Below are positions 2,983 through 19,415 of a stretch of DNA of 64,000 nucleotides, piece after piece. Source of the DNA: Anaerolineae bacterium (GTDB lineage Bacteria; Chloroflexota; Anaerolineae; Aggregatilineales; UBA3940); the NCBI GenBank assembly GCA_016926985.1, contig JAFGNO010000093.1, positions 2,933-66,932 of the forward strand, given 5' to 3'. The translations under genes and the position numbers were made by a program. The notes under the pieces were generated by a model that was not told the origin of the DNA, did no database searches, and saw nothing but the letters and a program-made list of their open reading frames with translations. Each line of letters starts with the position of its first letter. Within the stretch, counting starts at the first letter, position 1.

Positions 2983-3042
2983 GGTTCCTCCTTGGGAAGG
3001 GTCATGACCTGTATCCTGCGAGAGAGTTCCGGCGAAGACATT

Positions 3043-3699: not shown

Positions 3700-3819
3700 G
3701 GGTCCTCCACAGGGCGAGCAGCTGTACGGACGGAGCGGGAGACCCGGTTCCCCGGCCCGCGTTCGGAGTGCAGGGGACACACTGAACCATCAGCCGGTGG
3801 CTTGATGGGCAGACGGAGC

Positions 3820-5751: not shown

Positions 5752-6393
5752 ATGTCTGATGAACCCCTCCTTCCCCTGGATGAACGCCGGCACCCGGACG
5801 GGCGCCGGAAAATCAATCTGACCCGGACCGAGCGCGCTGAAATCCGGCGGCGGCGCATGATCGAAGCCGCTGTTGCCATGTTCCTCAACCCCTACGAACA
5901 CCTGCGGACGCAGGATATCGCCGCTGAACTGGGGATCTCCACCAAAACGCTGAAGAAGATCACCCAGGATGAAACCTTCATCGAGTTGTATAACGATCAC
6001 TTCCTGGAAGTCTCCCATGACCCGCGCATTCAACTGGTGCGCAGCTCCATCGGTGAAATTGCACCCTTGGCCCTGCAGCGTCTGACCGAGATGGTCGAGA
6101 AGGAAACCACACCCCCGACGGTCCTGCTCAATGCCATCAAACTGATCTTCGAAAAAGCGGGTATTGAACCGGTGAACGTGCGCAGCAGTGACAAGAAGGA
6201 GCTGGTGGACTTTCTCAATGACCGCGGCGTGAACATCCAGCAGATGAACGTGAACATCCACGCCCCCAGCGAATATGAAGAGGTGTATGCAGAAGTCCTG
6301 GAAGGCGTAGTGCGCGAGCCGGCCTCGTTGCTGGCCCCTACGGAAAAAGATGCCGCTGTTTCAGTGACACAAAGTGACGATCCCCTACAATGA
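5752..6393 (+). CDS. HTH DNA-binding protein (putative regulator; TerS-like architecture not excluded)
   Basis: 213 aa. HTH in LRTQDIAAELGISTKTLKKITQ. Divergent from the early operon. Confidence 0.55.
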   Translation: MSDEPLLPLDERRHPDGRRKINLTRTERAEIRRRRMIEAAVAMFLNPYEHLRTQDIAAELGISTKTLKKITQDETFIELYNDHFLEVSHDPRIQLVRSSIGEIAPLALQRLTEMVEKETTPPTVLLNAIKLIFEKAGIEPVNVRSSDKKELVDFLNDRGVNIQQMNVNIHAPSEYEEVYAEVLEGVVREPASLLAPTEKDAAVSVTQSDDPLQ

Positions 6394-6904
6394 TGTGATC
6401 GAGTAATTCGATGTCCATCATTTTGGCAGCTTCATAGAGATGTCTGGTGACAGAAATATCTTCCGGAGAAGGTTCCGGGTCGCCGGAAGGATGATTGTGC
6501 GCCAGCATCATCGCCTGCGCATTGATCAGGATGGCCGGACGCAGCAGTTCAGCGATCCGGACCTGGATGGTGTTCAAGGTGCCGGTATACACTTTCACCC
6601 CGGAGCGCAGCGGTTCATTTCGAGTGCTCAGCGGCAGAACCACCATCTGCTCCTGGAGCGGATTATCAAACAGTTCGAAAATCTTCCGGAACAGCTCGCC
6701 CGCCATGGAAGGGCTTTCCAGCCGGATCTCATGCGAGGTGCTGCGGACCAGCCCAAACGCGGCCACGATCTTCCGGGCTGTTTCCTGGTCCACGACGGTT
6801 GCCAGGGTTTCCTCATCCAGGCTGCGAAGGACCTCCAGGCTGCCAAAGGCTGTGCGCAAATTCTGGGCCGCATAGGGTCCGGTTAATTCTGCGAGATAGT
6901 CCAT
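6338..6904 (-). CDS. radC: RadC-like JAB-domain protein
   Basis: 188 aa from MDYLAELTG. C-terminal MMLAHNHPSGDPEPSPEDI (JAMM motif typical of RadC). Convergent with the HTH gene and overlapping it by 56 nt. Confidence 0.8.
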   Translation of the reverse strand: MDYLAELTGPYAAQNLRTAFGSLEVLRSLDEETLATVVDQETARKIVAAFGLVRSTSHEIRLESPSMAGELFRKIFELFDNPLQEQMVVLPLSTRNEPLRSGVKVYTGTLNTIQVRIAELLRPAILINAQAMMLAHNHPSGDPEPSPEDISVTRHLYEAAKMMDIELLDHIIVGDRHFVSLKQRHLFP

Positions 6905-6922
6905 TTCCTCATCCTTTCGCGC

Positions 6923-6960
6923 AGTGAGGCTGCTTCTGAGAGCAGCCTCACTTTTGTATT
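6923..6960 (+). terminator. stem-loop plus T-tract (rightward terminator or radC leader structure)
   Basis: AGTGAGGCTGC-ttctgaga-GCAGCCTCACT followed by TTTTGTATT. Confidence 0.4.
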
Positions 6961-7030
6961 GAAAAGCCGGAAGGCACCCACCAGGCCCGAACAGAACCGT
7001 TTCACGCGCCAGAAGCCTGCTTCCCATCCC

Positions 7031-7266: not shown

Positions 7267-8052
7267 ATGATGAAGAAGTCCCCATTAAAGCTCACCTTAC
7301 CAAAGCATATGGCTTTTCTGACTGTTACCATCTTTGCCCTCTCTATTTTGGCTGCTGGCTGTGGGCCAGCTACCCCGGAGCCAGGGGCAATTGAAACTGC
7401 GATTTTTCTCACACAACAAGCTGAGGAAGGGGCTGATGCGGTTGATGTAATTTCTGAGGAACAGGCTACCAACACGCCCTACCCATCTGCTACCCCGCAA
7501 CCCCCAACGGAGACGCCCTCCCCATCCCCAGAACCTGTAGCGAGTGCTGAGGATCATTGGGCAAAAAACTACGTCGGGACCTACGATAATGGTGATATTG
7601 TCCTGGAAATTGCCCGTATCGTTGTTGGATATAAGGATGCGATCGGCGATCAGGATTGGGACGTCCTGAACGATTACATCGAGGGCTGGGCAGATGTAGA
7701 AGTTGTTGGTGAGCTCGTTTTCAAAGTAACGAATAACTCAGAGAAGACTGTGAGCCTCTATCCTGACCAGGGAACCGTTCAAATAGGCTCAGAACAAATT
7801 CCGCTGGACGAATTCATGTTTTACACAACATTTGGCGATGATGTAGGCGGGGAAATATTCCCTGGCGTGACAAAGATTGGCGGAATGTGGTTCGCTATTG
7901 AGAGATCTGCACCAGATGAGATCACACAGATCATCTATCGAGCCAGTGCACCATTCGATGAAGAAACTTTTAACAACATTGGACCAGATATCGAAATCGT
8001 GATCGATATATCTGAGTATGTATTCGAAGAGTTACCTGAGGAATTGCATTAA
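7267..8052 (+). CDS. lipoprotein (moron)
   Basis: Signal peptide with lipobox: FLTVTIFALSILAAGC. Pro/Thr-rich linker. GC visibly lower than the phage backbone. Confidence 0.7.
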   Translation: MMKKSPLKLTLPKHMAFLTVTIFALSILAAGCGPATPEPGAIETAIFLTQQAEEGADAVDVISEEQATNTPYPSATPQPPTETPSPSPEPVASAEDHWAKNYVGTYDNGDIVLEIARIVVGYKDAIGDQDWDVLNDYIEGWADVEVVGELVFKVTNNSEKTVSLYPDQGTVQIGSEQIPLDEFMFYTTFGDDVGGEIFPGVTKIGGMWFAIERSAPDEITQIIYRASAPFDEETFNNIGPDIEIVIDISEYVFEELPEELH

Positions 8053-8367
8053 TTGCCCGTAGATTTGCATCAGATATAAACTTGCTATCCAAAATACTGT
8101 GTTGTGCTATACTGCAAATTGCATCTAGTAGTGTGAGCGCTCAAGAGATGCACGCTCCCCATCGGCCAGCCCCCCTCTGGTCGAGGGGAGCACCTCTTTT
8201 CTGTAGACCATCATCAAACAATCAACAGCTTCAGATTGGTTGCAAATATTGATGGCTTCATGCTAAGCTTGCTTGTTCCCGGAACATTGGATCTGAAGTG
8301 CCCGGCATAAGCAGGCAGCATGGCTGTACCAGCTATCTGGCTACCAATACACACAGGGGAAAACATC

Positions 8368-9297
8368 ATGCCCATGTTTCAAATCAGCAGCAGCAGTATG
8401 GCGCCGGTTTCGCAGAGCAATTTTCAATCGGAAAAGCAGCTCCAGCACCTGGTGGAAACCAACCTCGAAACGATCTTCAACTGCCGCTTTGTGGCAACTG
8501 AATTTTCAACCGGCGCCCAGCACGCCGGGCGCATTGATACACTGGCGCTTTCCGAAGACAACAACCCGGTGATCATTGAATACAAGAAAATCGAGAGTTC
8601 GGACCTGATCACGCAGAGCCTGTTCTACCTTTCCTGGATCGGCGATCACCGCGGCGATTTTGAAATTGCTGCACAGAAGAAGCTCGGGGCTGACGTGGAG
8701 GTGGACTGGTCCGATGTGCGCGTGCTGTGCATCGCACCGGGATACAAGAAGTATGATCTCCATGCAGTACGGGTGATGGGCGCTAATATTGAACTCTGGC
8801 GCTATCGCCTCTACGACAATCAGACCATCTATTTTGAGGAAATCTTCAAACAGGCTTATCCTGAAAATGACCTGGCAGGAGACAAGGACCCAGCCATGGT
8901 TGCAGCCGGCAAGAAGGGCGCGATCACCAGGGCCACAGCAACCTACACCTTTGAAGAACACCTCGATGGGAAACCGGAGAAAATCCGTTCTCTGGCTCAC
9001 GATGTGCGCGACTATATTCTCGGCCTGGATACAGCGATTGAGCAGAACCCCAGAAAGATGTACATCGGTTACAAGATTTCGCAGAACATCGTTTGCATGG
9101 ATGTTCAGAGCCAGCAAATCCGTTTGTGGCTCAAGCTGAAGCAGTCGGAAGTATCCGATCCTCCCTCCAATTATCGCGATGTGTCAAACCTGGGACATCA
9201 TGGAACCGGGGATGCGGAGTTCATCTTGAGATCGGAAGACGATTTTGAGAGAACGAAACCGTATATTGAAATGGCTTACCGGAAAATCGGCGGCTAG
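8368..9297 (+). CDS. NucS/DUF91-like PD-(D/E)xK nuclease-domain protein (R-M-associated type)
   Basis: MPMFQISS start with AGGGGA RBS. GRIDTLALSEDNNPVIIEYKK (D..ExK). Sits directly upstream of the hsdM fragment. Confidence 0.5.
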   Translation: MPMFQISSSSMAPVSQSNFQSEKQLQHLVETNLETIFNCRFVATEFSTGAQHAGRIDTLALSEDNNPVIIEYKKIESSDLITQSLFYLSWIGDHRGDFEIAAQKKLGADVEVDWSDVRVLCIAPGYKKYDLHAVRVMGANIELWRYRLYDNQTIYFEEIFKQAYPENDLAGDKDPAMVAAGKKGAITRATATYTFEEHLDGKPEKIRSLAHDVRDYILGLDTAIEQNPRKMYIGYKISQNIVCMDVQSQQIRLWLKLKQSEVSDPPSNYRDVSNLGHHGTGDAEFILRSEDDFERTKPYIEMAYRKIGG

Positions 9298-9305
9298 GAG
9301 AGGAT

Positions 9306-9497
9306 ATGCTCAAGGAACAGGAACGCGCGGAACTGCACCGCACCATCTGGCAGATTGCCAACGACCTTCGCGGCAGCGTGGACGGCTGGGATTTCAAGCA
9401 GTATGTGCTGGGCATGCTGTTCTACCGCTTCATCAGCGAAAACCTCACCAGCTACATCAACGAGGACGAACGGCGCAGCGGCAGCAGGGATTTCGAC
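9306..9497 (+). pseudogene. hsdM: Type I R-M methyltransferase HsdM, N-terminal fragment only
   Basis: LHRTIWQIANDLRGSVDGWDFKQYVLGMLFYRFISENLTSYINEDE... is the HsdM N-domain signature. Homology-like sequence stops after ...SRDFD, and composition switches to AT-rich at about 9498. Confidence 0.75.
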
Positions 9498-9672
9498 AGG
9501 AAAATTGAGTTATTTCTATCCGTCAGGTAAGGATCCACGATCACGCTGACAAGGTTAGGAAATTTACAAAACGACTAACAATACCATTTTAGGTAATTAA
9601 ATTCCGACTTTACTAGCGGAGTAAAAAACATTTGAATAATATTACAGTTATCTCCAAACAATCGAGTTGCCA

Positions 9673-11361
9673 ATGTTAAGAATTCCCAATCCAGGATCAG
9701 ATATAAAAAGTTTTATCAACATATATGTGGAACTGTACAATGCCCTTCATCACAGAAAAGACTTCGGTTTGGACGATATCTCATATGTCTTAGTAGAACA
9801 TAACCTTGCAGCATCAAGTGGATATGTGGGAGCCAAAGCTCTTGAGGAATCCTCCAGAGCAGATAGAAGTCGAGATCCTCTATACAACCAATCTAAAATG
9901 TATTCTGAACTATATAAATTGTTGGGGTGGTTACACCCGACAGAAGAAGCTGCTCTGCGATTCAAATTTACATTTTTGGGGTTACATGTAGTTAGGGCAT
10001 ATCCCAATCCAGAACAGATTTTTGAACAATCACTCCTAGGCGTAGTTTATCCAAATCCCATTCTGGATGTCAAAGGAAATCAACATATTAGACCATTTGT
10101 TACAATTTTGAAGGCCTGTAGGGATTTGGATGGGTACATCAGTAGGGACGAAATGATTATTGGCCCCTTATCATTATCGGATGATAGAAATAAGGAAAAG
10201 TATCAGGAAATGATTTCAACCATAAGGGGGATTAGAGGAAAAACTGAAAAACTCCAAAGCGCAATTAATTCTTTGGAAAATTCCCGAAGAATTAAATACA
10301 ACACAATGCAAAATTACACTAGGTTTCCGATCGCCGTCTTGAAGTGGACTAAATGGACTGTTTCCCAGAAAATGAGGATATATGAAAGAACATCAGGATT
10401 TTTAAAAATCACTCAAAAAGGTGAAGAAACGCTAAATCAGCTTGTGAACTTTAAAGATATTAGGTCAAAAGACTTAACTGAATTTCCCACTGATGAACTT
10501 AGAGCTGCTGTAGCACGATTAGCATTTTCACAGATGCTGGAGAGAGCGAATTTTGATGTATCAAGTAATTCTGAAATAATTAGCCAAGACACCCTCCTGA
10601 TTAAATCTAAAATTCCTGGTAGTGCTTTACAATTTCAATTTTCACCGTTCCAAGATATGTCCCAACCCCAGCTTACGAACATCTTTCCTTCTGTTATGGG
10701 AACTCATGATCAAGAATCAACCCAAACGGCTGGGAACAATCCCAATTCAGTAAAGTCAATTTCTTCAATTGTCAGATTGGATCGTGTAGATACAACTACA
10801 AACCTTTATGACGGGATCAAGGATTTGTTTATTTCCGATTCAGATGGTCTATCTGTTGATCAAATAGTGGAACGATTCTATTCATCCCACTCAGGATCAG
10901 ATCTCAATTCTTTTTATCCATTTGTAGAAAAGTTGTTTCGAAGTTTGGGATACGACTGTAGTCTCTCAAGAACCGGAGTAAACTATGAAAGATGGGATGC
11001 AATAATTAAGGACCCCTTACATTCGATACCAATAGAAATTAAATCGCCAAGTGAGGAAGAATCCATTTCATTGAAAGCTATAAGGCAAGCTTTAGAAAAT
11101 AAAATCATTCTATTGTCACGAGAGGCATATCCAACTAAACAAGATACAACTTCTTTAGTTGTTGGTTACAACTTTCCAAATAACCGATCAGAAGCTGTGG
11201 CTTTGATTGAAGCCTTCAAATTTTCGTATGGTTTTTCTATTGGGATAATTGACTTTCGGTCACTATTAACTTTGGTTATAGAAAAAATCCTAAATAAGAA
11301 GCAACACAATATTGAACAAATGAGAACATTGATAGGATTTATAGATGTTAAGACCACTTAG
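9673..11361 (+). CDS. putative restriction endonuclease (C-terminal PD-(D/E)xK-like)
   Basis: 562 aa from ATG 9673 (the ORF track starts at TTG 9667). C-terminal ERWDAIIKDPLHSIPIEIKSPSEEE fits D..ExK. Convergent with two MTase genes. Family not identified. Confidence 0.45.
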   Translation: MLRIPNPGSDIKSFINIYVELYNALHHRKDFGLDDISYVLVEHNLAASSGYVGAKALEESSRADRSRDPLYNQSKMYSELYKLLGWLHPTEEAALRFKFTFLGLHVVRAYPNPEQIFEQSLLGVVYPNPILDVKGNQHIRPFVTILKACRDLDGYISRDEMIIGPLSLSDDRNKEKYQEMISTIRGIRGKTEKLQSAINSLENSRRIKYNTMQNYTRFPIAVLKWTKWTVSQKMRIYERTSGFLKITQKGEETLNQLVNFKDIRSKDLTEFPTDELRAAVARLAFSQMLERANFDVSSNSEIISQDTLLIKSKIPGSALQFQFSPFQDMSQPQLTNIFPSVMGTHDQESTQTAGNNPNSVKSISSIVRLDRVDTTTNLYDGIKDLFISDSDGLSVDQIVERFYSSHSGSDLNSFYPFVEKLFRSLGYDCSLSRTGVNYERWDAIIKDPLHSIPIEIKSPSEEESISLKAIRQALENKIILLSREAYPTKQDTTSLVVGYNFPNNRSEAVALIEAFKFSYGFSIGIIDFRSLLTLVIEKILNKKQHNIEQMRTLIGFIDVKTT

Positions 11362-12412
11362 TCCTAAAAGAAATTATCGGCATGCAATATCCTTCAAGGA
11401 AAACTATAAACCAGCACGAATTGTGTGGAGTGGATTGCAACACCCTGCGACAATTCATTATTCCGATGGCAGCAGAAGTCCGAGTACTTGCATAAGATGT
11501 TTAGATGCACCATGTATGTATTATTCTGAAGATGAAATCCAAATAGGAATTTTTACTGATTTCCCCTACGATAAAAACAATGAAGTATGTCCTACTAAGG
11601 CAATTTCTTGGGAAGAAGACTTCTCTTCACCTCAAATCAACAATGAAAATTGCATCTTTTGCGGTCTATGCATCCAAAGATGTCCAGCAAAAGCAATATT
11701 TTTTTCACAGGAATCAGCAATTGTCATAGATAATCTGAATGATCATTTTGTTGAACTTGGAGAATTTGTAAACGAAAAATCCCTTAGAGAAACAACTCAT
11801 CTATTCCATAACGCTAAAGAAGAAGGAGTCTATTTGCTCGAAAATGATGACGTACTCCAATTATCAAAAACCAAACTAGATCAAATTCTTCCAAGATCAA
11901 ATGCCCAGTTTCCTAATCACTTGTCAAGAAATCTTTTACTTGGATTAGGCGTGGGTGCTATGATGAGACGCTTGGGGGATGTCAATATTCGAATGGACTT
12001 ACTGTTTGGCCCACCAGGTGTAAATCAAGGTACAGGTGAGGTTGAATTTGGAAACGGTGTCTTAGATGCGCCAAGGAATATCTTAGATAATTATGCAACC
12101 TTGGTCACAAAATATAATTCCTCAAGAGATTCGCTCTTCCCTATAGTTATTGTTAATACACTACCAAATTCGCGATCCGATTATTGGTTAGTCATACAGG
12201 ATATACGCAAAGTCCTTGGCATTAAAATACAAACAATGTCAATTGGTCTATTATACATACTGCTTTGGAATAAACTTTCATTATCAATAATCGATGGTAA
12301 TGAATTTTATATTGATGCTGATAATCCATCACTGCGAGAGAAATTGACTACTCACCTACAGAGAGAAAGTAGTATCATTTTTGATCTTGGCTATCTTGAG
12401 AGTGAAAAATAG
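11345..12412 (+). CDS. 4Fe-4S dicluster-domain protein with unknown C-terminal domain (REase partner?)
   Basis: CIRCLDAPC...CP and CIFCGLCIQRCP ferredoxin-type motifs. Overlaps the upstream gene by 17 nt and the MTase 3' end by 38 nt. Confidence 0.6.
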   Translation: MLRPLSPKRNYRHAISFKENYKPARIVWSGLQHPATIHYSDGSRSPSTCIRCLDAPCMYYSEDEIQIGIFTDFPYDKNNEVCPTKAISWEEDFSSPQINNENCIFCGLCIQRCPAKAIFFSQESAIVIDNLNDHFVELGEFVNEKSLRETTHLFHNAKEEGVYLLENDDVLQLSKTKLDQILPRSNAQFPNHLSRNLLLGLGVGAMMRRLGDVNIRMDLLFGPPGVNQGTGEVEFGNGVLDAPRNILDNYATLVTKYNSSRDSLFPIVIVNTLPNSRSDYWLVIQDIRKVLGIKIQTMSIGLLYILLWNKLSLSIIDGNEFYIDADNPSLREKLTTHLQRESSIIFDLGYLESEK

Positions 12413-13187
12413 GCATGCTTACTTTCCACTCATGAATTCGGTCATTCGCAATTTCAATGTACTCCGGATTGATTTCGAAACCCAAATACTTGCGTCCCTC
12501 CATGTAAGCTGCTAAACACTCTGTTCCACTTCCAACAAAAGGGACTACAACAATATCGCCCTCTTTTGAAAAATGTTTAATTATTCTCAAGGAAATTGAA
12601 AGTGGTTTTTGAGTTGGATGATCTACTTTTTCAGCCTGGAATCTTTTTCCAGCCAGTACAGGGAACTTCCAGACATCCCCTGCTAGTCTCCCCTCTGGAT
12701 GTGGATGCCATACTTTTCCATTTTTCGTGACTTTATACTTCAACCTATCTTGGCTTTTATAAGGTTCCCTAATAGGGAAATAAGTATAGTTACTCCCTTT
12801 AGAAAACCATAATATTGGTTCATAATGAGCAGCTAATGTCCTTTTCGAATACCCAGCAAATCCATTTTCATAGAACCATATGATCTGTCTACGATAATCA
12901 AGCTTAATTTCAGACATGTAACAATGCAGCCAACACAAATGGTGATGGATACCATATACAAATATATTTCCCCCAGGTTTCAAGATCCGTTTTGCTTCAT
13001 CCAACCAACTTTTACTCCATGATAGCCAAGTATCTTTGTGGTCCTTTTCTTTATAGATACCAAAATCTTTCCCAATATTATAAGGGGGGTCTGCTATAAT
13101 TAAATCAGCAAATTCGTCCGGCAAAGCCTTCATTCCTTCAATACAATCCAGATTATGGATGATGTTTAAATCATTGGTTTTTTTCAT
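12375..13187 (-). CDS. DNA methyltransferase, N4/N6 family (beta-type order: DPPY first)
   Basis: IIADPPYNIG (motif IV), HPTQKP, VPFVGSGTE (motif I). Confidence 0.88.
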   Translation of the reverse strand: MKKTNDLNIIHNLDCIEGMKALPDEFADLIIADPPYNIGKDFGIYKEKDHKDTWLSWSKSWLDEAKRILKPGGNIFVYGIHHHLCWLHCYMSEIKLDYRRQIIWFYENGFAGYSKRTLAAHYEPILWFSKGSNYTYFPIREPYKSQDRLKYKVTKNGKVWHPHPEGRLAGDVWKFPVLAGKRFQAEKVDHPTQKPLSISLRIIKHFSKEGDIVVVPFVGSGTECLAAYMEGRKYLGFEINPEYIEIANDRIHEWKVSMPIFHSQDSQDQK

Positions 13188-14067
13188 TATTATTCTGCAC
13201 TATTAGAATATATTGGTGGTGAATATTAGGAACATATGCATAGGGATAACCATAAGGAAAAACTCGCTTATGGCGTTGATAGAGTATCGTGATCCCTTTT
13301 AGCTCAAACCCTCGACTTTCTAATTGCATCGCTAAATCAGCATGAAACATGTAATACTTCGATTTATGACGGAAATCGCTTACTATGACGGCCATATACT
13401 TTTCTGGTTTTAGAACACGAATAGTGTCACCAAGAATTGCCGATAAATTTCTTAAGAATTCCTGATAATCTTCAATATTTCCTAAATCTCTTTCATCATT
13501 ACTATATCTGGTGTCCAATCCATTTGCTATGCGTTCTTGTCTTACTTTATGATCTTCCTTATGAAGAATGTTCCAGTAAGGCGGACTTGTAACTACAAAA
13601 TCGACAGTATTTTCCTCTACGGTATCCAACAAATCCCTTGCATCGCCAACGTAAATTTCCTGTTGATACTGAGAGGGGAACATTGGGGCAATTTCATTAC
13701 TTAATCTTTCCTTGGCTAACTCTGCATAATGTGGATTTAATTCAAAACCAATCCCACGCCGATTATTTATCGCACATGCCTTTAATGTTGAGCCTACCCC
13801 GACAAAGGGGTCAAGAACTAATTGTCCCTCCTTGGTAAAGAATTTAATTAATCGACCGACATCAGTAAACGAAAAAGGGGCAGGATGTTGTTTTTCAATT
13901 TTGGTATCTGGATGCTTTGCGCCTAACCCCTTTTGGTTCCATACAGAAATTGTTTCAACTATCCATTCTTTTGAAGGCAGGTCATTAAGCTTGTTTCGGG
14001 GATCAACTCCAGGCGATGGATCCTCAAAAGCGCTTTCTTGCTGATCGTGATTCTCAATTACTTCCAT
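13171..14067 (-). CDS. DNA methyltransferase, N4/N6 family (SPPY type, motif I before motif IV)
   Basis: QHPAPF, LDPFVGVGST (motif I), VVTSPPYWN (motif IV). Confidence 0.88.
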   Translation of the reverse strand: MEVIENHDQQESAFEDPSPGVDPRNKLNDLPSKEWIVETISVWNQKGLGAKHPDTKIEKQHPAPFSFTDVGRLIKFFTKEGQLVLDPFVGVGSTLKACAINNRRGIGFELNPHYAELAKERLSNEIAPMFPSQYQQEIYVGDARDLLDTVEENTVDFVVTSPPYWNILHKEDHKVRQERIANGLDTRYSNDERDLGNIEDYQEFLRNLSAILGDTIRVLKPEKYMAVIVSDFRHKSKYYMFHADLAMQLESRGFELKGITILYQRHKRVFPYGYPYAYVPNIHHQYILIVQNNNEKNQ

Positions 14068-14281
14068 AATTTTCCAGAACCTCCAGGAGTTTATCCAACT
14101 CCCGCTTTTGATATAATCGATAGTTATTCAGCGGATGCCTGTATGAATTCAATTTCCCAGACTTATCCCAATTTCGAAGTGTAGACGAAGAGACACCTAA
14201 GTATTTAGCAGCTTCACTCACAGTTAGATATTCATTAAATTTTTTAATTCGCTGAGGCATGACACTGAACCGTAAGATCAT
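14054..14281 (-). CDS. MerR/excisionase-type HTH protein (possible R-M controller)
   Basis: LTVSEAAKYLGVSSSTLRNWDKSGKL. Overlaps the MTase start by 14 nt. Alternative start at 14260. Confidence 0.65.
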   Translation of the reverse strand: MILRFSVMPQRIKKFNEYLTVSEAAKYLGVSSSTLRNWDKSGKLNSYRHPLNNYRLYQKRELDKLLEVLENYGSN

Positions 14282-14743
14282 CTATGTCGTGTTAACATTA
14301 TTAAGCATTGTCAATCAATACTATAGGTTGTTAAACCTTTTTTGTCAATTATTCCATTTTCACAACCTCAACATACAGTTTTATTTACTTGAAAACAAGT
14401 TCCTAATCCTTATTCCACAATATTGGAAATATTAAAGCCACAATAATCTCCTGCCAAAAAACTCCAAACCACTGATTGCCCTTATACTTCTTACCATTAC
14501 CTCCCCACATATTGCATAATCCGGCCAAGATCGACAACCGATTCAATATATGAATTAATCTAATTTTCATACCATCAGTTGCCAAACTCATCTAAGCCAT
14601 ATCCTTTTATCAAAACATAATTCCTTCCATTTCTACAGTTGACATATTACTAACTCACCTACGAATTTCAGAAAAGTGTGATATGATTATTTGTGAACAT
14701 ATGTTCAGAACAATTCCCATACAGAAAGGAACAAAAAACCATC

Positions 14744-15103
14744 ATGTACGAGTTAGTTAAGGAACCACCAGAGCATGATTTTGGAGGAATTATTCTTACG
14801 GGAAGGGAACAATTAGTCCTGTACATTATCTGCTCCTCAAAACCCCAATATCCAACATACCGCGAAATACTTAAGCGCCTAAATCTCATAGTGCCATCCC
14901 GAGATGGAGGGAAAACAAAATATTCATCAACTCAACAGGTGGTTAGAGTTATTGATAAACTTCGTCTTAAGGGGCTTTTGGTTAATCCTGAGATCGAAAG
15001 GGAGCTGTTGAACACAGCCAGGAATATCATACCGACCAATTTAGGTGAAGAGCTTGCACCTCAAATTGAGGCAATATTACGGACCTTGCCAGCCCCGCTT
15101 TAG
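14744..15103 (+). CDS. hypothetical winged-helix-like protein
   Basis: 119 aa from ATG 14744 (ORF track starts at GTG 14693). YREILKRLNL...VVRVIDKLRLKGLL suggests wHTH. Confidence 0.4.
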   Translation: MYELVKEPPEHDFGGIILTGREQLVLYIICSSKPQYPTYREILKRLNLIVPSRDGGKTKYSSTQQVVRVIDKLRLKGLLVNPEIERELLNTARNIIPTNLGEELAPQIEAILRTLPAPL

Positions 15104-15221
15104 AACTGAAATAAGTCTTCACATACACTATCTGTTGCTATCAAGTAATTATCGCGATTACCAGCATCTAGCTTAGCTATGAAAAACCGAATTCAATTGT
15201 CGTAAGCAGCATAATCAAATG

Positions 15222-15254
15222 AAAAATCACCCCAAACCCAAGGGGTGATTTTTT
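15222..15254. terminator. bidirectional rho-independent terminator at the island boundary
   Basis: AAAAATCACCCC-aaacccaa-GGGGTGATTTTT with extra T. A-run and T-run flank a 12-bp stem. Confidence 0.7.
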
Positions 15255-15323
15255 CGTCACACCCCTCTATACTGCATCTCAGAATGTGGTTATGCGTAGA
15301 CCATATCTCCATACCAGAAGGTT

Positions 15324-15341
15324 CTATTCGACATCGAAAAC
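15324..15341. repeat. 18-bp palindrome family copy 3
   Basis: CTATTCGACATCGAAAAC. Its right flank CTCAC is shared with copy 13. Confidence 0.8.
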
Positions 15342-15468
15342 TCACACCCCACGCGCCCCTTCTATCCAATGGTCACCACAATAGTAAAAACCGACCGATT
15401 ATCCACCTGCATACCATGCCTTTTCTTCCATCGCTTGCGATCGCGCCGGTCCGATTTGTCCCCATCCC

Positions 15469-15663
15469 TCACCTCACCCTGTCAATGATAGCCTTCACCA
15501 CGCCACAAAGCACCGGAAGCAGAAACGCAGCCAACCAGATCCATTTCGCCCTGTCCAGGTTTTCTTTCGAAAAGAACACATATATCTCCGGATCGGTCTC
15601 CACAGTCAGGTCATCCATCATCGTCCAGCCTTCTTCCCCCCAGTCATCCCAGTCATCCCCCAT
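15469..15663 (-). CDS. small membrane protein
   Basis: 64 aa. Acidic N-terminus (MGDDWDDWGEEGW). C-terminal TM WIWLAAFLLPVLCGVV. Overlaps the upstream gene by 11 nt. Confidence 0.5.
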   Translation of the reverse strand: MGDDWDDWGEEGWTMMDDLTVETDPEIYVFFSKENLDRAKWIWLAAFLLPVLCGVVKAIIDRVR

Positions 15664-16018
15664 GCGCGTCCTCCGGTTTGGTGTGTTTGATCGAGAAGGT
15701 CATGCAGCCGAGCGGCTTCCCGTCCTCCCCACGCACCATACGCCCAGGACTGATGAGGTCCTCCCTGTCCGACGCATCCATCGTCATCTTCGATACGATA
15801 TACAGGGTCTCCGGCGCAGGGTCCGGCAGATTGATCACATCCCCATAGATCGACCGCACCAGCGGTACCAGCGTTTGTCCTACCGTCAGCTTGCCCACAG
15901 ATACATCCATCTGATCCACCCTGGCGACCACGCCGGTTGGTGCAAATGTCCGCACGATTTCGCCGTCTGACGATACAACCGTAATTTCATGGGGTGTCAG
16001 ATTGATCATTTTTATCAT
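15653..16018 (-). CDS. hypothetical protein
   Basis: 121 aa from MIKMINLTPHEITVV. GGGAGA RBS 6 nt upstream. GC-rich, backbone-like composition. Confidence 0.55.
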   Translation of the reverse strand: MIKMINLTPHEITVVSSDGEIVRTFAPTGVVARVDQMDVSVGKLTVGQTLVPLVRSIYGDVINLPDPAPETLYIVSKMTMDASDREDLISPGRMVRGEDGKPLGCMTFSIKHTKPEDAHGG

Positions 16019-16388
16019 TGGGTTTCTCCCTGATATCAGTTTATGGCTGAACAGCCAACTGCAAAAATTGGGTACTATTCTTTTCATGTAGCACCTTTAC
16101 AGTGAAAAGGTTCAAAATGGTAGACCTCATTTCAATAGGGCGTCTATCGTAGAAAAAATAATCCGCACAGATTTTGGATAGTTAAGAGGAGAAAGTCACG
16201 GCAGCGCTTGCCAAAGCAGCACCTGCCCGTATACAACAAGAAACATGGATGAGCTGGATAAGCAGGGTGATATTGTGAATCCACACCGCAATTCGGGTTC
16301 TAAATCCCCTGATGAAACACTGTTGGATGGGAATAGGCAGCCGATACTATAGGCGTAATCTTATCGAAAATGAAGTTGTCAGTCTCAT

Positions 16389-17669
16389 TTATTCCTGAGT
16401 TACATTACCATCTTCAGAAACCCATAGAAAGCTAAAATTGGCAGCTATTTTGAACCATTGAATCTCCTGCTTCAATCTGTGATAAGTAGGGAAGTCGGGG
16501 AGAGCTACAAAGAGGACCGCTCTACTGTTTTCCTGACGATATCGTATCATGTCATACACTGCAGCCTTAAACCAGTGTCGTGCTTGGGGAGCTAACCTGG
16601 TTCTGACAGTTCCTTTTGGGTAACCCTTCACGGTCACCCAGGCGTTTTGCTCATCAAACACTGCTTCTATATCTTTTCCTCTTTGTCGTGATCTGGTATC
16701 GGCTACTGACCGGATGGTGTATTCATTCAAGACCAGATACTCGACGATGCGAGACTGGATATTACCTTCCCAGAACCACGGTTCTTTTTCAGAATCGCAT
16801 GAATAATTGGCCGTCTCAATTTTCGTTGTATCTCCGATCCAAAAATTAAGAATTTTTCCCTCTCTCTTTTCGCGCTTAACTAATCCTTCTTTAGCTAGAT
16901 CACGACAGATTGAATTTGCTTGCTGTCGAAAGTTAAACCCCAGGTTTAAGGCAAGTTGATCATCATCAAGTCCACCTGAATGGGATTGGAGATGCTCAAT
17001 TACTCGCTCTCGTTGTTTCATCATCAGCTCCTTATCTACAGATTCGGTTGTGATTTTTCCGTTCTCATCTATCCACTTGAAGCAAACGAAGGGTATGTTA
17101 AGAAAGGCTCTTCTCAATAATGAATACCTGCGCCACGCTTCGCAATCAGGTAATGCAATAAAACCAACAGGAGATGAGTGAGAGAGAAAAGAATTGTTAT
17201 ATAAGTCGGAGATGCAATCGAATATTTCAACTACTTCAAACATACTATCAATCTGACATCCATGCTTTTCATTCGATGAATCTAGGTTATCCACCCTAAA
17301 CCCACGGTTTAGTTTACAGCCAACCACAAAGACTTCAAAATAAGGTATTCTTGAAGAACCAACAATCATACGGTATATTGGAAAACTGGCAGGTTGCCAA
17401 AAATCAGTTACCTGGTATCCGTTTTCCAAGAAAGAGAGCCTTAGTCTATTACGCAAACCTCCGACAGAATACCATAGGGGATTATGCAGATCCCCACTCC
17501 AATAGTACCTGATTCCAGAACTGTGAACCTCATGATGAATGTACTCTGGGTCTAATTTTTCAATATACATCCTCGCAGCCACTGAGGATATATTGAATTC
17601 CTCAGCAATTTGATCTGCATCAAATCCGCCATATATATTCTGTATGCGATTTTTAATTTTTTCTAACAT
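16389..17669 (-). CDS. two-wHTH protein with C-terminal PD-(D/E)xK-like nuclease domain
   Basis: 426 aa, AT-rich. DADQIAEEFNISSVAARMYIEKL and DDDQLALNLGF..ICRDLAKEGLVKRE (wHTH). C-terminal RQRGKDIEAVFDEQNAWVTVKGYP (D.E...K). Confidence 0.5.
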   Translation of the reverse strand: MLEKIKNRIQNIYGGFDADQIAEEFNISSVAARMYIEKLDPEYIHHEVHSSGIRYYWSGDLHNPLWYSVGGLRNRLRLSFLENGYQVTDFWQPASFPIYRMIVGSSRIPYFEVFVVGCKLNRGFRVDNLDSSNEKHGCQIDSMFEVVEIFDCISDLYNNSFLSHSSPVGFIALPDCEAWRRYSLLRRAFLNIPFVCFKWIDENGKITTESVDKELMMKQRERVIEHLQSHSGGLDDDQLALNLGFNFRQQANSICRDLAKEGLVKREKREGKILNFWIGDTTKIETANYSCDSEKEPWFWEGNIQSRIVEYLVLNEYTIRSVADTRSRQRGKDIEAVFDEQNAWVTVKGYPKGTVRTRLAPQARHWFKAAVYDMIRYRQENSRAVLFVALPDFPTYHRLKQEIQWFKIAANFSFLWVSEDGNVTQE

Positions 17670-18035
17670 GAGAGAATACCTTCAATACTAAATATTCTTT
17701 CAAATCAAAATCCCACGTCGACTAGAATTTAGCATGCCTCAATTTTTCCTAATAAAACTAACGGTTGTAGCTGAACCCAAAAAACGTAACTTGGTATTGT
17801 TCCCTCCAAATGTATCACTTTTTATTAATCCGTCCTATAAAAACGGAGGTTTGAAGGGATTTTTTCAGCGTAACCCAAATCTCAAATAACGGGCTTAAAC
17901 ACGAAAAGGGTCGTAAGGCAGACTTCCTTTATCCATTTCTTGATGAGGGTTCCATTCAGAAAGCTCTACCACACTTCTCGCTGTTTCTGCAGAAAAGCTC
18001 ATGGTTACGGATACCTGGAAACATGGTTCACTTCC

Positions 18036-18329
18036 TCAGAACGGAATGGGCAGGCAATAGGCTTCCGCGATGGCCTTCTCGGAGCTGATCCCTTTCCGGT
18101 CTCCCAGCCGGCACACTTCCAGGATCAGACAATACAAATCGTCGGTATCCTGGACATGCTCCATCAGCTCGTGCAGGGTGAATTTGCCCATGCTGCAGGG
18201 TTCCGGCGAATGGCTGTGACACTCCGGGCAAAGACCCTGCGAAGCGATGGGATAGACGGTTCCGCATGTGCACTGGGTCATGAACGGTTCCCCGGCGCAG
18301 TAGTGCTCGTAGTCTGTTGTGTATTTCAT
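18036..18329 (-). CDS. Cys-rich (zinc-ribbon-like) hypothetical protein
   Basis: 97 aa from MKYTTDYEHYC with AGGAGA RBS. CTCG...CPEC pairs. Confidence 0.55.
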   Translation of the reverse strand: MKYTTDYEHYCAGEPFMTQCTCGTVYPIASQGLCPECHSHSPEPCSMGKFTLHELMEHVQDTDDLYCLILEVCRLGDRKGISSEKAIAEAYCLPIPF

Positions 18330-18399
18330 GGTGTCTCCTGTTGTCATCCGGATCTGTCTCCTGAATTTGCAATACGGCGCCCCTGCAGCTGAGGGGTGC

Positions 18400-18417
18400 C
18401 TTTTCGACGTTGAAAAC
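18400..18417. repeat. 18-bp palindrome family copy 4
   Basis: CTTTTCGACGTTGAAAAC. Intergenic. Preceded by the hairpin CCCCTgcagctgAGGGG. Confidence 0.85.
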
Positions 18418-18427
18418 GGACGCCGGG

Positions 18428-18895
18428 CTAGTTATCAAAATCCATCACAATACGCACATGCGCCGGATCAGGAGAGAGCTTCTTCAAAGCCTCCAGCTCC
18501 GTGAAGTACAAGGACCCAAGGGTCTCTGCCAGGCTGGTCCCGTCCGGCAGGGTCCTGGTGTAGTCCACAGCCAGCAGGTCCGCCAGGGTCATCCAGTTCA
18601 GCGAATGGCTGATGACGCTGGGCCACCAGTTGGCGTACATCGACCGGAAGGAGCTGTCGTCGGGGACAAACAGTTTGCTGGGGAAAAGCCGGGGTGCAGC
18701 GCCGCGGCTTTCGACACCGAACAGGGCAAACATGTCATAGTTGCGCCACCAGAAAACCGCGCAGTCAATGGCTTCGAACGGCTCCAGGCCCTCCACCCTG
18801 CGCTGGTGATAATGGGTACCGGGAATGGGCTCCACCACACACTGCCAGTCTCCGCCGGTTTTCACTTCAACAAATGCATGAATATCACAGCCCAT
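18428..18895 (-). CDS. hypothetical protein
   Basis: 155 aa from MGCDIHAFVEV. GGAGGG RBS. Confidence 0.6.
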   Translation of the reverse strand: MGCDIHAFVEVKTGGDWQCVVEPIPGTHYHQRRVEGLEPFEAIDCAVFWWRNYDMFALFGVESRGAAPRLFPSKLFVPDDSSFRSMYANWWPSVISHSLNWMTLADLLAVDYTRTLPDGTSLAETLGSLYFTELEALKKLSPDPAHVRIVMDFDN

Positions 18896-18926: not shown

Positions 18927-19415
18927 TCACCTTGGGGTGTATCCGCGATCCTCTGGCAGGTTGTCACCCCTTGCTGCTGTTCGGGACAGGCTGTCGCACA
19001 GCTCATTGAAGGCGTTCCCGTCATGACCTCGAACCCATTGGAAACGGACGGTCCGATCCTCCACCCGTTTCAGAAGCTGCTCCCACAGATCCCGGTTTTT
19101 CACGGGACGGTAGCCACTCTTCTTCCAGCCTTTGCTCTGCCAGCGCCGGACCCAATCCTTTTCAAAGGCATGTACCAGCAGCTGGCTATCTGTATGCAGC
19201 GCAACTTCCTCCCCAACGGGAACCAGATCCAGCGCCCTGATTGCAGCCATGATTTCCATGCGGTTGTTGGTTGTCATGCGATAGCCCTGGAACAGACGTG
19301 CAACTTCCCTGCTGACGGTGTTCCCATCCTGGTTGTATTCTTCGAACAGGATGGCAGCATATCCGCCGGGGCCCGGATTGCCCAGGCTGCTTCCATCGGT
19401 ATAGATCGTATACAT
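18927..19415 (-). CDS. rnhA: ribonuclease HI
   Basis: MYTIYTDGSSLGNPGPGGYAAIL, TNNRMEIMAAIRAL, HTDSQLLV, VRGHDGNAFNELCD. GGAGGA RBS. Confidence 0.92.
   Translation of the reverse strand: MYTIYTDGSSLGNPGPGGYAAILFEEYNQDGNTVSREVARLFQGYRMTTNNRMEIMAAIRALDLVPVGEEVALHTDSQLLVHAFEKDWVRRWQSKGWKKSGYRPVKNRDLWEQLLKRVEDRTVRFQWVRGHDGNAFNELCDSLSRTAARGDNLPEDRGYTPR

What the first reader, a model, noticed from the sequence alone, without database searches (positions are those of the whole stretch)
9673..14281. Self-contained AT-rich R-M cassette with two differently permuted N4/N6 MTases and a two-gene nuclease side
Seen: the rightward genes are a 562-aa protein with a C-terminal D..ExK-like motif, overlapping a 355-aa Fe-S protein. 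Convergent with them are HTH, then an SPPY-type MTase, then a DPPY-type MTase, with 14- and 17-nt overlaps.

Established knowledge: two separate MTases are typical of Type IIS or asymmetric-site systems, where each strand needs its own enzyme. Some of these (BspD6I-type) have large and small nuclease subunits.

Inference: an asymmetric-site R-M with a heterodimeric nuclease. From memory, the 562-aa protein has some architectural resemblance to the AlwI/BstNBI family, but I cannot verify this.
Basis: partly seen in the sequence, partly recalled or inferred. Interest (0 to 1): 0.6.

Follow-up and report, generated by a model that had tools for sequence, protein, structure and literature searches.

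The report
Iron-sulfur two-subunit restriction-modification cassette
This low-GC insert is a complete restriction-modification system whose DNA-cutting enzyme has a large FokI/BspD6I-like subunit and a small catalytic subunit that unusually carries a two-cluster iron-sulfur (ferredoxin) domain; the same four-gene module is widespread in bacteria and I found no description of it.

Summary

The interpretation, an asymmetric-site R-M with a heterodimeric nuclease, is supported.
- **Large subunit (562 aa).** Its AlphaFold model matches full-length Nt.BspD6I and FokI (Foldseek E about 1e-8). D442/E455/K457 are invariant.
- **Small subunit (355 aa).** It has an N-terminal 2x[4Fe-4S] ferredoxin domain. 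Its C-terminal domain is a paralogue of the large subunit's cleavage domain (hhalign 96.4%), as in BspD6I. Its motif is D..ExE.
- **Conservation.** All 36 genome loci from more than 10 phyla carry the same four genes.
- **Fe-S domain.** The eight cysteines are invariant, except in two lineages (Prochlorococcus, a C. botulinum phage) that lack the whole domain. It is therefore an accessory module, and it is acidic.
- **Databases.** Neither nuclease subunit hits Pfam, NCBIfam or PADLOC. No ferredoxin-type Fe-S restriction subunit appears in the searched literature.

Not established: the recognition site, the cleavage chemistry and the role of the Fe-S domain.

Verdict: a new variant of a known kind (Class III heterodimeric Type IIS), of moderately high interest. 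REBASE could not be checked.

The parts
9673..11361 (+). Gene A: large restriction subunit, 562 aa. Recognition domain is aa 1-340 (nt 9673-10692). A disordered, indel-rich linker spans aa 342-362 (nt 10696-10758). The FokI-like PD-(D/E)XK cleavage domain is aa 363-562 (nt 10759-11358), with D442 (10996-10998), E455 (11035-11037) and K457 (11041-11043).
   Evidence: ORF. AF2 model has pLDDT 87.9, with only the linker below 50. Foldseek PDB top hits are Nt.BspD6I and FokI, E 1e-8 to 4e-7. The catalytic triad is invariant 42/42. There are at least 1,497 homologous clusters with no Pfam, NCBIfam or PADLOC hit.
11345..12412 (+). Gene B: small restriction subunit, 355 aa. It overlaps A by 17 nt, which suggests translational coupling. 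The N-terminal acidic domain (aa 1-145) carries eight Cys: C49-x2-C52-x4-C57...C82-P and C103-x2-C106-x2-C109-x3-C113-P (nt 11489-11686), a 2x[4Fe-4S] ferredoxin pattern. The C-terminal PD-(D/E)XK-like domain (aa 146-355, nt 11780-12409) has D218 (11996-11998), E232 (12038-12040) and E234 (12044-12046).
   Evidence: Pfam Fer4/Fer4_7. PDB profile hits are to polyferredoxins and NuoI only, in aa 80-125. AF2 model has pLDDT 91.6 and pTM 0.91. Foldseek matches a ferredoxin subunit plus the FokI/Nt.BspD6I cleavage domain, EndoMS, Card1 and Can2, and viral 'restriction endonuclease'/Mrr folds. hhalign to the A cleavage domain gives prob 96.4%, E 1.4e-9. B has exactly eight Cys.
12375..13187 (-). Gene M2: beta-class N6/N4 DNA methyltransferase, 270 aa. 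DPPY is at aa 33 (nt 13091-13080) and FxGxG at aa 217. It is predicted to make m6A. Its 3' end overlaps the 3' end of B by 38 nt.
   Evidence: Pfam PF01555 at 2.5e-52. PADLOC MTase_II at 1.8e-59. Closest solved structure is M.MboIIA (1g60) at 7.9e-39.
13171..14067 (-). Gene M1: circularly permuted N6/N4 DNA methyltransferase, 298 aa. FxGxG at aa 88 precedes SPPY at aa 161 (nt 13587-13576). It is predicted to make m4C. It overlaps M2 by 17 nt.
   Evidence: Pfam PF01555 matches in two stretches, with the C-terminal half of the profile matching first. Closest solved relatives are 2zie (2.1e-28) and N4-cytosine MTases 8s9n/8s9m.
14054..14281 (-). MerR/excisionase-type HTH protein, 75 aa. It is the first gene of the HTH-M1-M2 operon and overlaps M1 by 14 nt. 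It is a probable transcriptional controller and a lineage-specific accessory.
   Evidence: Pfam MerR 6e-12 and HTH_17 1.5e-11. PADLOC mad1 8.8e-15. Among the loci, an orthologous HTH is detected only in the Chloroflexota subgroup. Other loci have none, or an unrelated HTH_3 or otherwise annotated HTH gene.
14320..14348 (-). Near-consensus sigma-70-like promoter (TTGACA-17-TATAGT, 11/12), about 40 nt upstream of the HTH start codon.
   Evidence: Consensus scan. It is a pattern match only, and the total number of promoter-like sites in the region is not above shuffled expectation.

Best explanation
The cassette is a Type IIS (subtype IIT, 'Class III') restriction-modification system.

**Proposed mechanism**
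1. M2 (DPPY, m6A-type) and M1 (SPPY, m4C-type) each methylate one strand of an asymmetric recognition sequence.
2. Subunit A binds the unmethylated site through a FokI/BspD6I-like N-terminal recognition domain.
3. A's tethered C-terminal PD-(D/E)XK domain (D442/E455/K457) cuts one strand at a short distance from the site.
4. Subunit B is translationally coupled to A and carries a paralogous cleavage domain with a BamHI-like D218...E232-x-E234 site. It docks on A's cleavage domain and cuts the second strand, giving a double-strand break.
5. B's N-terminal 2x[4Fe-4S] ferredoxin domain is an accessory module. It most likely makes folding, recruitment or activity of B depend on cluster loading or redox state. 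It is unlikely to contact DNA.
6. The HTH protein autoregulates the methylase operon in the Chloroflexota lineage.

**Shown**
- Gene content.
- Folds.
- A/B paralogy.
- Strict four-gene co-occurrence.
- Conservation of active-site and Cys residues.
- Natural variants that lack the Fe-S domain.

**Inferred**
- Heterodimer formation.
- Strand assignment.
- Cleavage at a distance.
- Base specificity of the MTases.
- Any role of the clusters.

The cassette itself is a horizontally acquired low-GC insert. It abuts a truncated hsdM gene inside a region that carries an integrase.
For: **Large subunit A**
- Only Nt.BspD6I and FokI match A significantly, and they match over about 600 aligned columns.
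- The model shows an N-terminal helical/winged-helix region, a 20-residue disordered linker and an alpha/beta C-terminal domain.
- The linker region is the most variable and indel-rich part of the family alignment.

**Small subunit B**
- The A and B C-terminal domains align at 96.4% probability. D442 aligns with D218, and E455-x-K457 with E232-x-E234.
- D218, E232 and E234 are invariant in the loci, except for one natural E234K variant.
- B's C-terminal domain matches the FokI and Nt.BspD6I cleavage domains and other PD-(D/E)XK nucleases.

**Gene neighbourhood**
- A, B, M2 and M1 are adjacent in 42/42 fetched loci covering more than 10 phyla, in two gene orders.
- The same holds in a C. botulinum phage.
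- A and B overlap by 17 nt here and in the Dehalococcoidia locus.

**Methyltransferases**
- They are more conserved than the nuclease subunits: 60-74% against 32-49% identity in the convergent subgroup. This is usual for R-M systems that share one specificity.
- M2 is closest to the Type IIS m6A enzyme M.MboIIA.

**Precedent**

**Fe-S domain**
- The eight Cys are invariant.
- The domain is absent from the small subunit in Prochlorococcus (232 aa) and phage CWou-2020b (214 aa), where the D..ExE site is retained.
- It is acidic, with mean net charge -6.4.
Against: - No biochemical or methylome data exist for any member, as far as I could find.
- Identity of A to BspD6I and FokI is only 11-14%. 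TM-scores are low (0.25-0.33), presumably because domain orientations differ.
- Foldseek E-values for B's nuclease domain are weak (6e-3 to 5e-2). ss.BspD6I (2p14) itself is not among the top 50 hits.
- B has Glu where canonical sites have the catalytic Lys. It could therefore be a catalytically dead partner.
- Word-avoidance analysis did not reveal a recognition site.
- SPPY/DPPY only suggest m4C/m6A.
Confidence: 0.72

Rival explanations
1. A acts like FokI. It is a Type IIS enzyme that cuts both strands by transient homodimerisation of its own cleavage domain. B is a catalytically inactive pseudo-nuclease. It heterodimerises with A to regulate restriction (inhibiting or licensing it) according to Fe-S, redox or iron status.
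For: - B carries E234 where the canonical catalytic Lys lies.
- FokI is as good a structural match to A as BspD6I.
- The Fe-S domain is acidic and dispensable in two lineages, which fits a regulatory add-on.
Against: - D218/E232/E234, R216, R244 and D248 are invariant at 30-48% overall identity. That is expected for a working active site.
- D..ExE is an active configuration in BamHI (from my own knowledge of BamHI, not checked here).
- One natural variant has ExK at this position.
- B is retained even where the Fe-S domain is lost, so the nuclease-like domain is the essential part.
Confidence: 0.17
2. The system is not a classical R-M. It is a methylation-associated defence of another kind, for example MADS-like, or a natural nicking system in which only one strand is ever cut.
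For: - The HTH matches PADLOC mad1 (8.8e-15) and M1 weakly matches mad2 (9.7e-13).
- Large subunits of Class III enzymes nick on their own.
Against: - No other mad genes, ATPases or helicases are present here or in any of the 42 loci.
- The HTH is absent from most loci.
- Both MTases score far better against ordinary Type II MTase models.
- Two conserved nuclease active sites argue for two-strand cleavage.
Confidence: 0.05
3. B is a genuine redox protein, a ferredoxin-like electron carrier. It performs or supports a chemical DNA modification or repair reaction rather than hydrolysis.
For: - The dicluster ferredoxin motif is invariant.
- All sequence hits in the PDB are electron-transfer proteins.
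Against: - The ferredoxin domain is missing in two otherwise complete systems.
- No radical-SAM, flavin or other redox partner is conserved nearby.
- B's conserved core is the nuclease paralogue.
Confidence: 0.04

Closest known systems
R.BspD6I / R.BstNBI (Nt.BspD6I large subunit plus ss.BspD6I small subunit; GAGTC 4/6), a 'Class III' heterodimeric Type IIS (IIT) enzyme
   Same: - The large subunit has a FokI-like recognition domain plus a C-terminal PD-(D/E)XK domain. Nt.BspD6I is the best structural match to A.
- The small subunit is encoded by the next ORF and is homologous to the large subunit's catalytic domain.
   Different: - There is no detectable sequence relationship: 11-14% identity and no Pfam RE_AlwI hit.
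- The small subunit here is twice as long because of an N-terminal 2x[4Fe-4S] ferredoxin domain.
- Its active site reads D..ExE.
- The recognition sequence is unknown.
FokI (GGATG 9/13)
   Same: Same overall architecture and fold as A: a three-part recognition region, a linker and a cleavage domain. B's C-terminal domain also matches the FokI cleavage domain.
   Different: FokI has no small subunit. It cuts the second strand by homodimerising (PMC3017599). From my own knowledge, its methyltransferase is a single two-domain protein.
BtsI / BsrDI heterodimeric Type IIS enzymes
   Same: Large subunit plus small subunit, each cutting one strand. The small subunit is inactive on its own.
   Different: In those enzymes the two catalytic sites are of two different kinds and are related to BsmI/Mva1269I. 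Here the two sites are paralogues of one FokI-like domain.
MboII-type modification pair (M1.MboII m6A plus M2.MboII m4C on GAAGA/TCTTC)
   Same: M2 is most similar to M.MboIIA among solved structures (7.9e-39). The DPPY-plus-SPPY pairing resembles this kind of strand-specific pair. The MboII pairing itself is from my own knowledge.
   Different: Similarity is at family level only, so specificity cannot be transferred. M1 is circularly permuted. GAAGA is not depleted in host loci (O/E 1.03).
Fe-S-containing PD-(D/E)XK nucleases (AddB, Cas4, Dna2, Exo5)
   Same: A PD-(D/E)XK nuclease domain combined with [4Fe-4S].
   Different: In those enzymes four Cys bracket the nuclease domain and hold a single cluster (from my own knowledge). 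Here all eight Cys lie in a separate, removable ferredoxin-type dicluster domain.
Ferredoxin-like domain of archaeal RNA polymerase subunit Rpo3 (D)
   Same: A 2x[4Fe-4S] ferredoxin-like domain sits in a nucleic-acid enzyme subunit. There the clusters act on heterodimer and complex assembly rather than on electron transfer (PMC5300874, abstract seen). It is a functional analogy for B.
   Different: The host protein and process are unrelated. This is an analogy only.

Membership tests
Class III heterodimeric Type IIS (IIT) restriction enzymes of the BspD6I/BstNBI kind | Large subunit with a FokI-like DNA-recognition region followed by one PD-(D/E)XK cleavage domain | tested here: met
   Foldseek on a pLDDT 87.9 model puts Nt.BspD6I and FokI as the only hits with E<1e-3, over the full length. 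D442/E455/K457 are invariant.
Class III heterodimeric Type IIS (IIT) restriction enzymes of the BspD6I/BstNBI kind | Small subunit encoded next to the large one and homologous to its catalytic domain | tested here: met
   hhalign of the A C-terminal domain against the B C-terminal domain gives prob 96.4%, E 1.4e-9. B follows A in 42/42 loci and in the phage.
Class III heterodimeric Type IIS (IIT) restriction enzymes of the BspD6I/BstNBI kind | Large subunit nicks alone; small subunit cuts the other strand only in complex | not testable with these tools
   Needs purified proteins. This behaviour is documented for BspD6I.
AlwI/BstNBI/PleI/MlyI sequence family (Pfam RE_AlwI) | Significant match to the family's sequence profile | tested here: not met
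   There is no Pfam hit for A at E<=0.01. None of the 50 family members hit RE_AlwI or FokI models at E<=10. A profile of A finds nothing in PDB sequences at E<=10.
Type II restriction-modification system | Separate DNA methyltransferase(s) and endonuclease gene(s) in one conserved module | tested here: met
   Two PF01555 MTases are adjacent to two nuclease-fold proteins in all loci.
Type II restriction-modification system | Site-specific cleavage blocked by cognate methylation | not testable with these tools
   Requires cleavage assays and a methylome. Word-avoidance analysis was inconclusive.
N6/N4 DNA methyltransferases (PF01555) | Motif IV (D/S)PPY and motif I FxGxG above the Pfam gathering score | tested here: met
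   M2 scores 178.4 bits and M1 98.3 bits against a cut-off of 26.7. The motif order is IV then I in M2 and I then IV in M1.
2x[4Fe-4S] bacterial-type ferredoxin domain | Two Cys motifs (CxxCxxCxxxCP type) giving eight ligands, with a Fer4 profile match | tested here: met
   Fer4 scores 33.1 bits (cut-off 21.1) and Fer4_7 33.1 bits (cut-off 27). The motifs are C49/52/57...C82P and C103/106/109/113P. They are invariant in all loci that have the domain. The first motif is atypical (CxxCxxxxC...CP).
2x[4Fe-4S] bacterial-type ferredoxin domain | Actual binding of two clusters | not testable with these tools
   Needs UV-vis/EPR and iron/sulfide analysis of anaerobically purified B.
MADS (methylation-associated defence system) | mad1 HTH and mad2 MTase together with the further mad genes (ATPase/nuclease components) | tested here: not met
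   Only a mad1-like HTH (8.8e-15) and a weak mad2 hit are present. No other mad components occur here or in related loci.
Fe-S 'iron-staple' PD-(D/E)XK nucleases (AddB/Cas4/Dna2) | Four Cys flanking or inside the nuclease domain that hold one cluster | tested here: not met
   B's nuclease domain (aa 146-355) contains no Cys. All eight lie in aa 49-113.

The most novel reading that the evidence does not exclude
The double-strand cutting step of a restriction enzyme is gated by two [4Fe-4S] clusters on its small subunit. Restriction would then be coupled to the cell's iron, oxygen or redox state. Alternatively, the need for host Fe-S maturation gives a built-in delay that lets methylation precede restriction when the cassette enters a new host. 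This would be the first R-M system with a ferredoxin-type redox cofactor. Natural cluster-less variants (Prochlorococcus, a C. botulinum phage) would serve as built-in controls.
Probability: 0.25. Interest if true: 0.8.

Novelty: new variant of a known kind. Interest (0 to 1): 0.62.

Why it matters
**Scale and coverage.** The module is widespread. There are at least 1,497 clusters of the large subunit at 90% identity and 587 representative clusters of the small-subunit domain, spread over more than 10 phyla. Yet both nuclease subunits lie outside Pfam, NCBIfam and PADLOC and are annotated as 'hypothetical' and '4Fe-4S binding protein'. Genome annotation and defence-system finders therefore see only two orphan-looking methyltransferases.

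**Mechanism.**
- It would extend the rare BspD6I-type large/small subunit design to a large new sequence family.
- As far as I could establish, it would add the first ferredoxin-type iron-sulfur domain to a restriction enzyme.
- It offers a compact two-protein model, with natural domain-less variants, for asking what Fe-S clusters do in DNA-cutting enzymes.
- It bears on an open question stated in PMC3017599: how small subunits of Class III enzymes are switched on.

**Practical use.** Large subunits of this class are natural strand-specific nickases, so the family may yield new nicking enzymes.

Tried and rejected
- **Sequence-level assignment of A failed.** Pfam, NCBIfam, PADLOC, and PDB searches with phmmer and with a profile all found nothing. 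Only the fold search was informative.
- **MADS reading rejected.** Only the HTH matches mad1, and no other mad genes are present.
- **Fe-S domain as a DNA-binding module rejected as unlikely.** It is acidic, with mean net charge -6.4.
- **Fe-S domain as essential to catalysis rejected.** Two lineages lack it.
- **'Restricted to anaerobes' rejected.** Hosts include Polynucleobacter, Trinickia, Halioglobus, a Xanthomonadaceae MAG and Poribacteria.
- **Recognition site not found.** I measured word depletion across 40 loci (523 kb). The strongest 5-mer signals were GAGTC/GACTC (O/E 0.76), GGWCC (0.79) and CCATC (0.87, below expectation in 37/40 loci). The 6-mer list was dominated by ordinary palindromes. 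No control genomes were available, so this is inconclusive.
- **Rest of hsdM and island boundaries not found.** There is no NPPF or motif I elsewhere in the window, no tRNA in 1-30000 and no convincing flanking repeats in 9000-18800.
- **Plasmids.** No homologue of A was found. Phages gave one.
- **Literature.** Six full-text searches found no description of a ferredoxin-type Fe-S restriction subunit (40 for BspD6I background).
- **REBASE** could not be queried.

Full report
**1. What is in the sequence**

- A: 9673..11361 (+), 562 aa.
- B: 11345..12412 (+), 355 aa.
- M2: 12375..13187 (-), 270 aa.
- M1: 13171..14067 (-), 298 aa.
- HTH: 14054..14281 (-), 75 aa.

A and B overlap by 17 nt, M1 and M2 by 17 nt, and HTH and M1 by 14 nt. 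The convergent 3' ends of B and M2 overlap by 38 nt. GC is 0.35-0.38 between about 9.5 and 15 kb, against 0.53-0.60 on both sides.

Pfam and NCBIfam give the following.
- B has a Fer4 dicluster domain confined to aa 45-120.
- Both methyltransferases match PF01555.
- The 75-aa protein has a MerR/excisionase-type HTH.
- A has no hit.

M2 has DPPY (aa 33) before FxGxG (aa 217). M1 has FxGxG (aa 88) before SPPY (aa 161), so the two are circular permutations of each other.

**2. The 562-aa protein is a FokI/BspD6I-type Type IIS nuclease**

A has at least 1,497 homologous clusters (43-51% identity among the best 120 listed). All are unnamed and none has a Pfam domain. Sequence and profile searches against PDB sequences find nothing.

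An AlphaFold2 model built on 50 homologues is confident (mean pLDDT 87.9). The only segment below 50 is residues 342-362. That segment coincides with the most variable, indel-rich part of the alignment.

Foldseek against the PDB returns eleven hits with E<=1e-3. All are Nt.BspD6I (5liq, 6qnz, 5lhc, 2ewf, 5liz) or FokI (1fok, 2fok), at E 1e-8 to 4e-7 and probability 1.0, aligned over about 600 columns. The next hit has E 0.04. TM-scores are low (0.25-0.33), as expected when multi-domain proteins differ in domain orientation.

The predicted active site is D442...E455-I-K457, followed by a conserved RQALENK helix. It is invariant in 42/42 sequences.

A therefore has the Type IIS architecture: a recognition region of about 340 aa, a flexible linker, and a cleavage domain of about 200 aa. 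It is not a sequence member of the AlwI/BstNBI Pfam family. None of 50 members hits RE_AlwI or FokI models even at E<=10, and 6/50 give sub-threshold Mrr_cat hits.

**3. The 'Fe-S protein' is the second nuclease subunit**

B's model is very confident (pLDDT 91.6, pTM 0.91).

*N-terminal part.* It holds exactly eight cysteines, arranged as C49-x2-C52-x4-C57...C82-P and C103-x2-C106-x2-C109-x3-C113-P. This is a bacterial dicluster ferredoxin pattern with an insertion in the first motif. PDB sequence hits are all polyferredoxins, NuoI and similar proteins, and they fall only in aa 80-125.

*C-terminal 210 residues.* These match no sequence family. By profile-profile comparison they align with A's cleavage domain at 96.4% probability (E 1.4e-9). 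D218 aligns with D442, E232-V-E234 with E455-I-K457, DAPRNILDN with KAVRQALEN, and LPNxRSEYW with LPNdRSEV.

Foldseek agrees with this reading, though the E-values are weak.
- After a ferredoxin subunit, the next hits are FokI (2fok_B, 5.9e-3) and Nt.BspD6I (2ewf, prob 0.97; 6qnz_A, rmsd 2.9 A over 97 columns).
- Then come EndoMS, Card1, Can2, EcoO109I and Mus81.
- In the viral library, the top hits are 'restriction endonuclease' and Mrr-type proteins.
- ss.BspD6I (2p14) is not in the top 50.

A small subunit that is a paralogue of the large subunit's catalytic domain, encoded by the next ORF, is exactly what is described for BspD6I/BstNBI (PMC3017599). In that enzyme the large subunit nicks the top strand. 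The small subunit cuts the bottom strand only together with an active large subunit (PMC6261011).

B's site reads D..ExE rather than D..ExK. From my own knowledge, BamHI uses such a configuration. One natural homologue (L010) has Lys at position 234.

**4. The four genes form a rigid, widespread module**

Contexts of three homologues (Dehalococcoidia, an environmental scaffold, an Omnitrophica MAG) and 36 genome loci were analysed with profiles of A and B and with phmmer for M1, M2 and HTH. Every locus carries A-B-M2-M1.

Two gene orders occur.
- A and B converge on M2 and M1, as in this window.
- M1, M2, A and B all run in the same direction.

Hosts include:
- Chloroflexota, Poribacteria, Firmicutes;
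- Actinomycetota (Collinsella, Eggerthellaceae);
- Verrucomicrobiota, Planctomycetota, Elusimicrobiota, Omnitrophota;
- Proteobacteria (Trinickia, Polynucleobacter, Halioglobus, a Xanthomonadaceae MAG);
- Prochlorococcus.

In the convergent subgroup the methyltransferases are 52-74% identical to those of the window, mostly 60-74%. A is 36-49% identical and B 32-48%. This suggests one shared specificity with faster-evolving nuclease subunits.

A profile of B's nuclease domain finds 587 representative clusters (217 at E<=1e-30) among 1.84 billion representatives. Most are 340-365 aa with the domain at about 147-355, so they carry the N-terminal extension.

The HTH gene is detected only in the Chloroflexota subgroup. 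Other loci have none, or an unrelated HTH_3 or otherwise annotated HTH gene.

No homologue of A is on PLSDB plasmids. One is in a phage record, Clostridium phage CWou-2020b of C. botulinum. There the genes are annotated HTH, 'DNA methylase', 'site-specific DNA-methyltransferase', 'hypothetical' and 'hypothetical'.

**5. The iron-sulfur domain is conserved but dispensable**

All eight Cys are invariant in every locus that has the domain. So are D218, E232, R216, R244 and R277, and E234 except for L010.

Two systems lack the whole domain.
- In Prochlorococcus sp. AG-347-K18 the small subunit is 232 aa and starts inside the end of A.
- In the C. botulinum phage it is 214 aa. It matches B's C-terminal profile at 99.7% and retains RFD...EVE.

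The two belong to different gene-order subgroups whose other members have the domain, so at least two independent losses are the parsimonious reading. A few further Cys-less representatives that start with Met exist, such as P0262 and P0233. Most short hits are truncated ORFs.

The domain is acidic in 23 of 24 homologues, with mean net charge -6.4 and pI 4.3-6.0. That argues against DNA binding. Carriers include aerobes, so it is not simply a trait of anaerobes.

My inference is that it is an accessory module. It would couple folding, recruitment or activity of the second-strand nuclease to cluster loading or redox state. The ferredoxin-like domain of archaeal RNA polymerase subunit Rpo3, which acts on complex assembly, is a functional analogy (PMC5300874, abstract). 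This step is not shown.

**6. Methyltransferases and recognition site**

M2's closest solved relatives are M.MboIIA (7.9e-39), then M.RsrI and CcrM. M1's are TTHA0409 (2zie) and N4-cytosine methyltransferases. A DPPY-plus-SPPY pair fits one m6A and one m4C enzyme acting on the two strands of an asymmetric site, but this is motif-based inference.

Word-depletion analysis over 40 loci (523 kb) gave only modest signals. These were GAGTC 0.76, GGWCC 0.79 and CCATC 0.87, plus the usual palindromic 6-mers. No control genomes were available, so I draw no conclusion.

**7. Genomic setting**

Immediately upstream lie a DUF5655/PDC-S18 gene (8320..9297; PADLOC 2.6e-108) and a 74-aa ORF (9306..9530). That ORF is the N-terminus of a Type I HsdM (TIGR00497 2.3e-29). 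The HsdM similarity ends at about residue 60, where GC drops. No HsdM catalytic motifs exist anywhere else in the window. The low-GC DNA therefore abuts a truncated Type I system.

The same contig (Logan SRR13394437, 31 kb, 'Anaerolineae bacterium') has a tyrosine integrase, a ThiF-like gene and RadC upstream, and an RNase H gene downstream. No tRNA or flanking repeats were found.

**8. Comparison with what is known, and novelty**

In function and architecture this is a Class III heterodimeric Type IIS (IIT) R-M system of the BspD6I kind. It is not a sequence member of that family.

The distinguishing features are:
- a new, very large sequence family for both subunits;
- a D..ExE site in the small subunit;
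- a 2x[4Fe-4S] ferredoxin domain fused to the small subunit.

Known Fe-S nucleases (AddB, Cas4, Dna2) hold a single cluster with Cys that bracket the nuclease domain. Here the nuclease domain has no Cys at all.

Full-text searches found no description of such a restriction subunit. REBASE could not be consulted, so prior database-level knowledge cannot be excluded.

I rate this as a new variant of a known kind, with interest 0.62.

Noticed in passing
window 9306-9530 (+): A 74-aa ORF that is the N-terminus of a Type I HsdM (TIGR00497 2.3e-29, HsdM_N 1.4e-12). The similarity stops at about residue 60, exactly where GC falls from about 0.53 to 0.36. No HsdM catalytic motifs (NPPF, motif I) occur anywhere else in the 64-kb window. 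The low-GC DNA therefore abuts a truncated hsdM, and the rest of that Type I system is missing.
   Followed up: partly
window 8320-9297 (+): A DUF5655 protein that matches the PADLOC candidate defence family PDC-S18 very strongly (2.6e-108). It sits directly upstream of the hsdM remnant.
   Followed up: no
window 15653-16087 (-) and 16389-17669 (-): A 144-aa protein matches PADLOC 'Unk_01, small protein sometimes fused to CARF' (3.6e-19). A 426-aa protein has no family apart from a weak CARF3-related hit (6e-4). The second lies in a further AT-rich block (GC 0.39-0.43 at 16-18 kb). This may be another defence module in the same island.
   Followed up: no
window 12375-12412, and related loci (e.g. 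L003, L019, L026, L027, L039): The convergent genes B and M2 overlap at their 3' ends: 38 nt here and 8-62 nt in most convergent-layout loci. No terminator-like site was found in this stretch of the window. Convergent read-through or antisense transcription may therefore link restriction and modification expression.
   Followed up: partly
L029 (Prochlorococcus sp. AG-347-K18) 7598-8296; L043 (Clostridium phage CWou-2020b) 6679-7323: Natural small subunits of 232 and 214 aa. They lack the entire ferredoxin domain but keep the D..ExE site, inside otherwise complete four-gene modules.
   Followed up: yes
L010 (Candidatus Poribacteria MAG) 2903-3997: The only homologue in which the small subunit's ExE reads ExK (Lys at the position of E234), i.e. 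the canonical PD-(D/E)XK motif.
   Followed up: no
window about 399-1280 (+), about 3043-3699 (-), 6338-7027 (-), about 18927-19415 (-): A tyrosine integrase, a ThiF-family gene, a RadC-like JAB gene and an RNase H gene flank the region (gene calls on the identical Logan contig, converted to window coordinates). The whole stretch may be an integrated mobile element. No tRNA was found in 1-30000.
   Followed up: partly
40 loci plus window (523 kb pooled): CCATC/GATGG is below Markov expectation in 37 of 40 loci that carry the system (O/E 0.87). GAGTC/GACTC is the most depleted 5-mer (O/E 0.76). Without control genomes this cannot be tied to the system's specificity.
   Followed up: partly
window 14693-15103 (+): A 136-aa ORF in the AT-rich DNA just beyond the HTH gene. 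It has no family hit apart from marginal PADLOC matches. It is not conserved next to the module in other loci.
   Followed up: no
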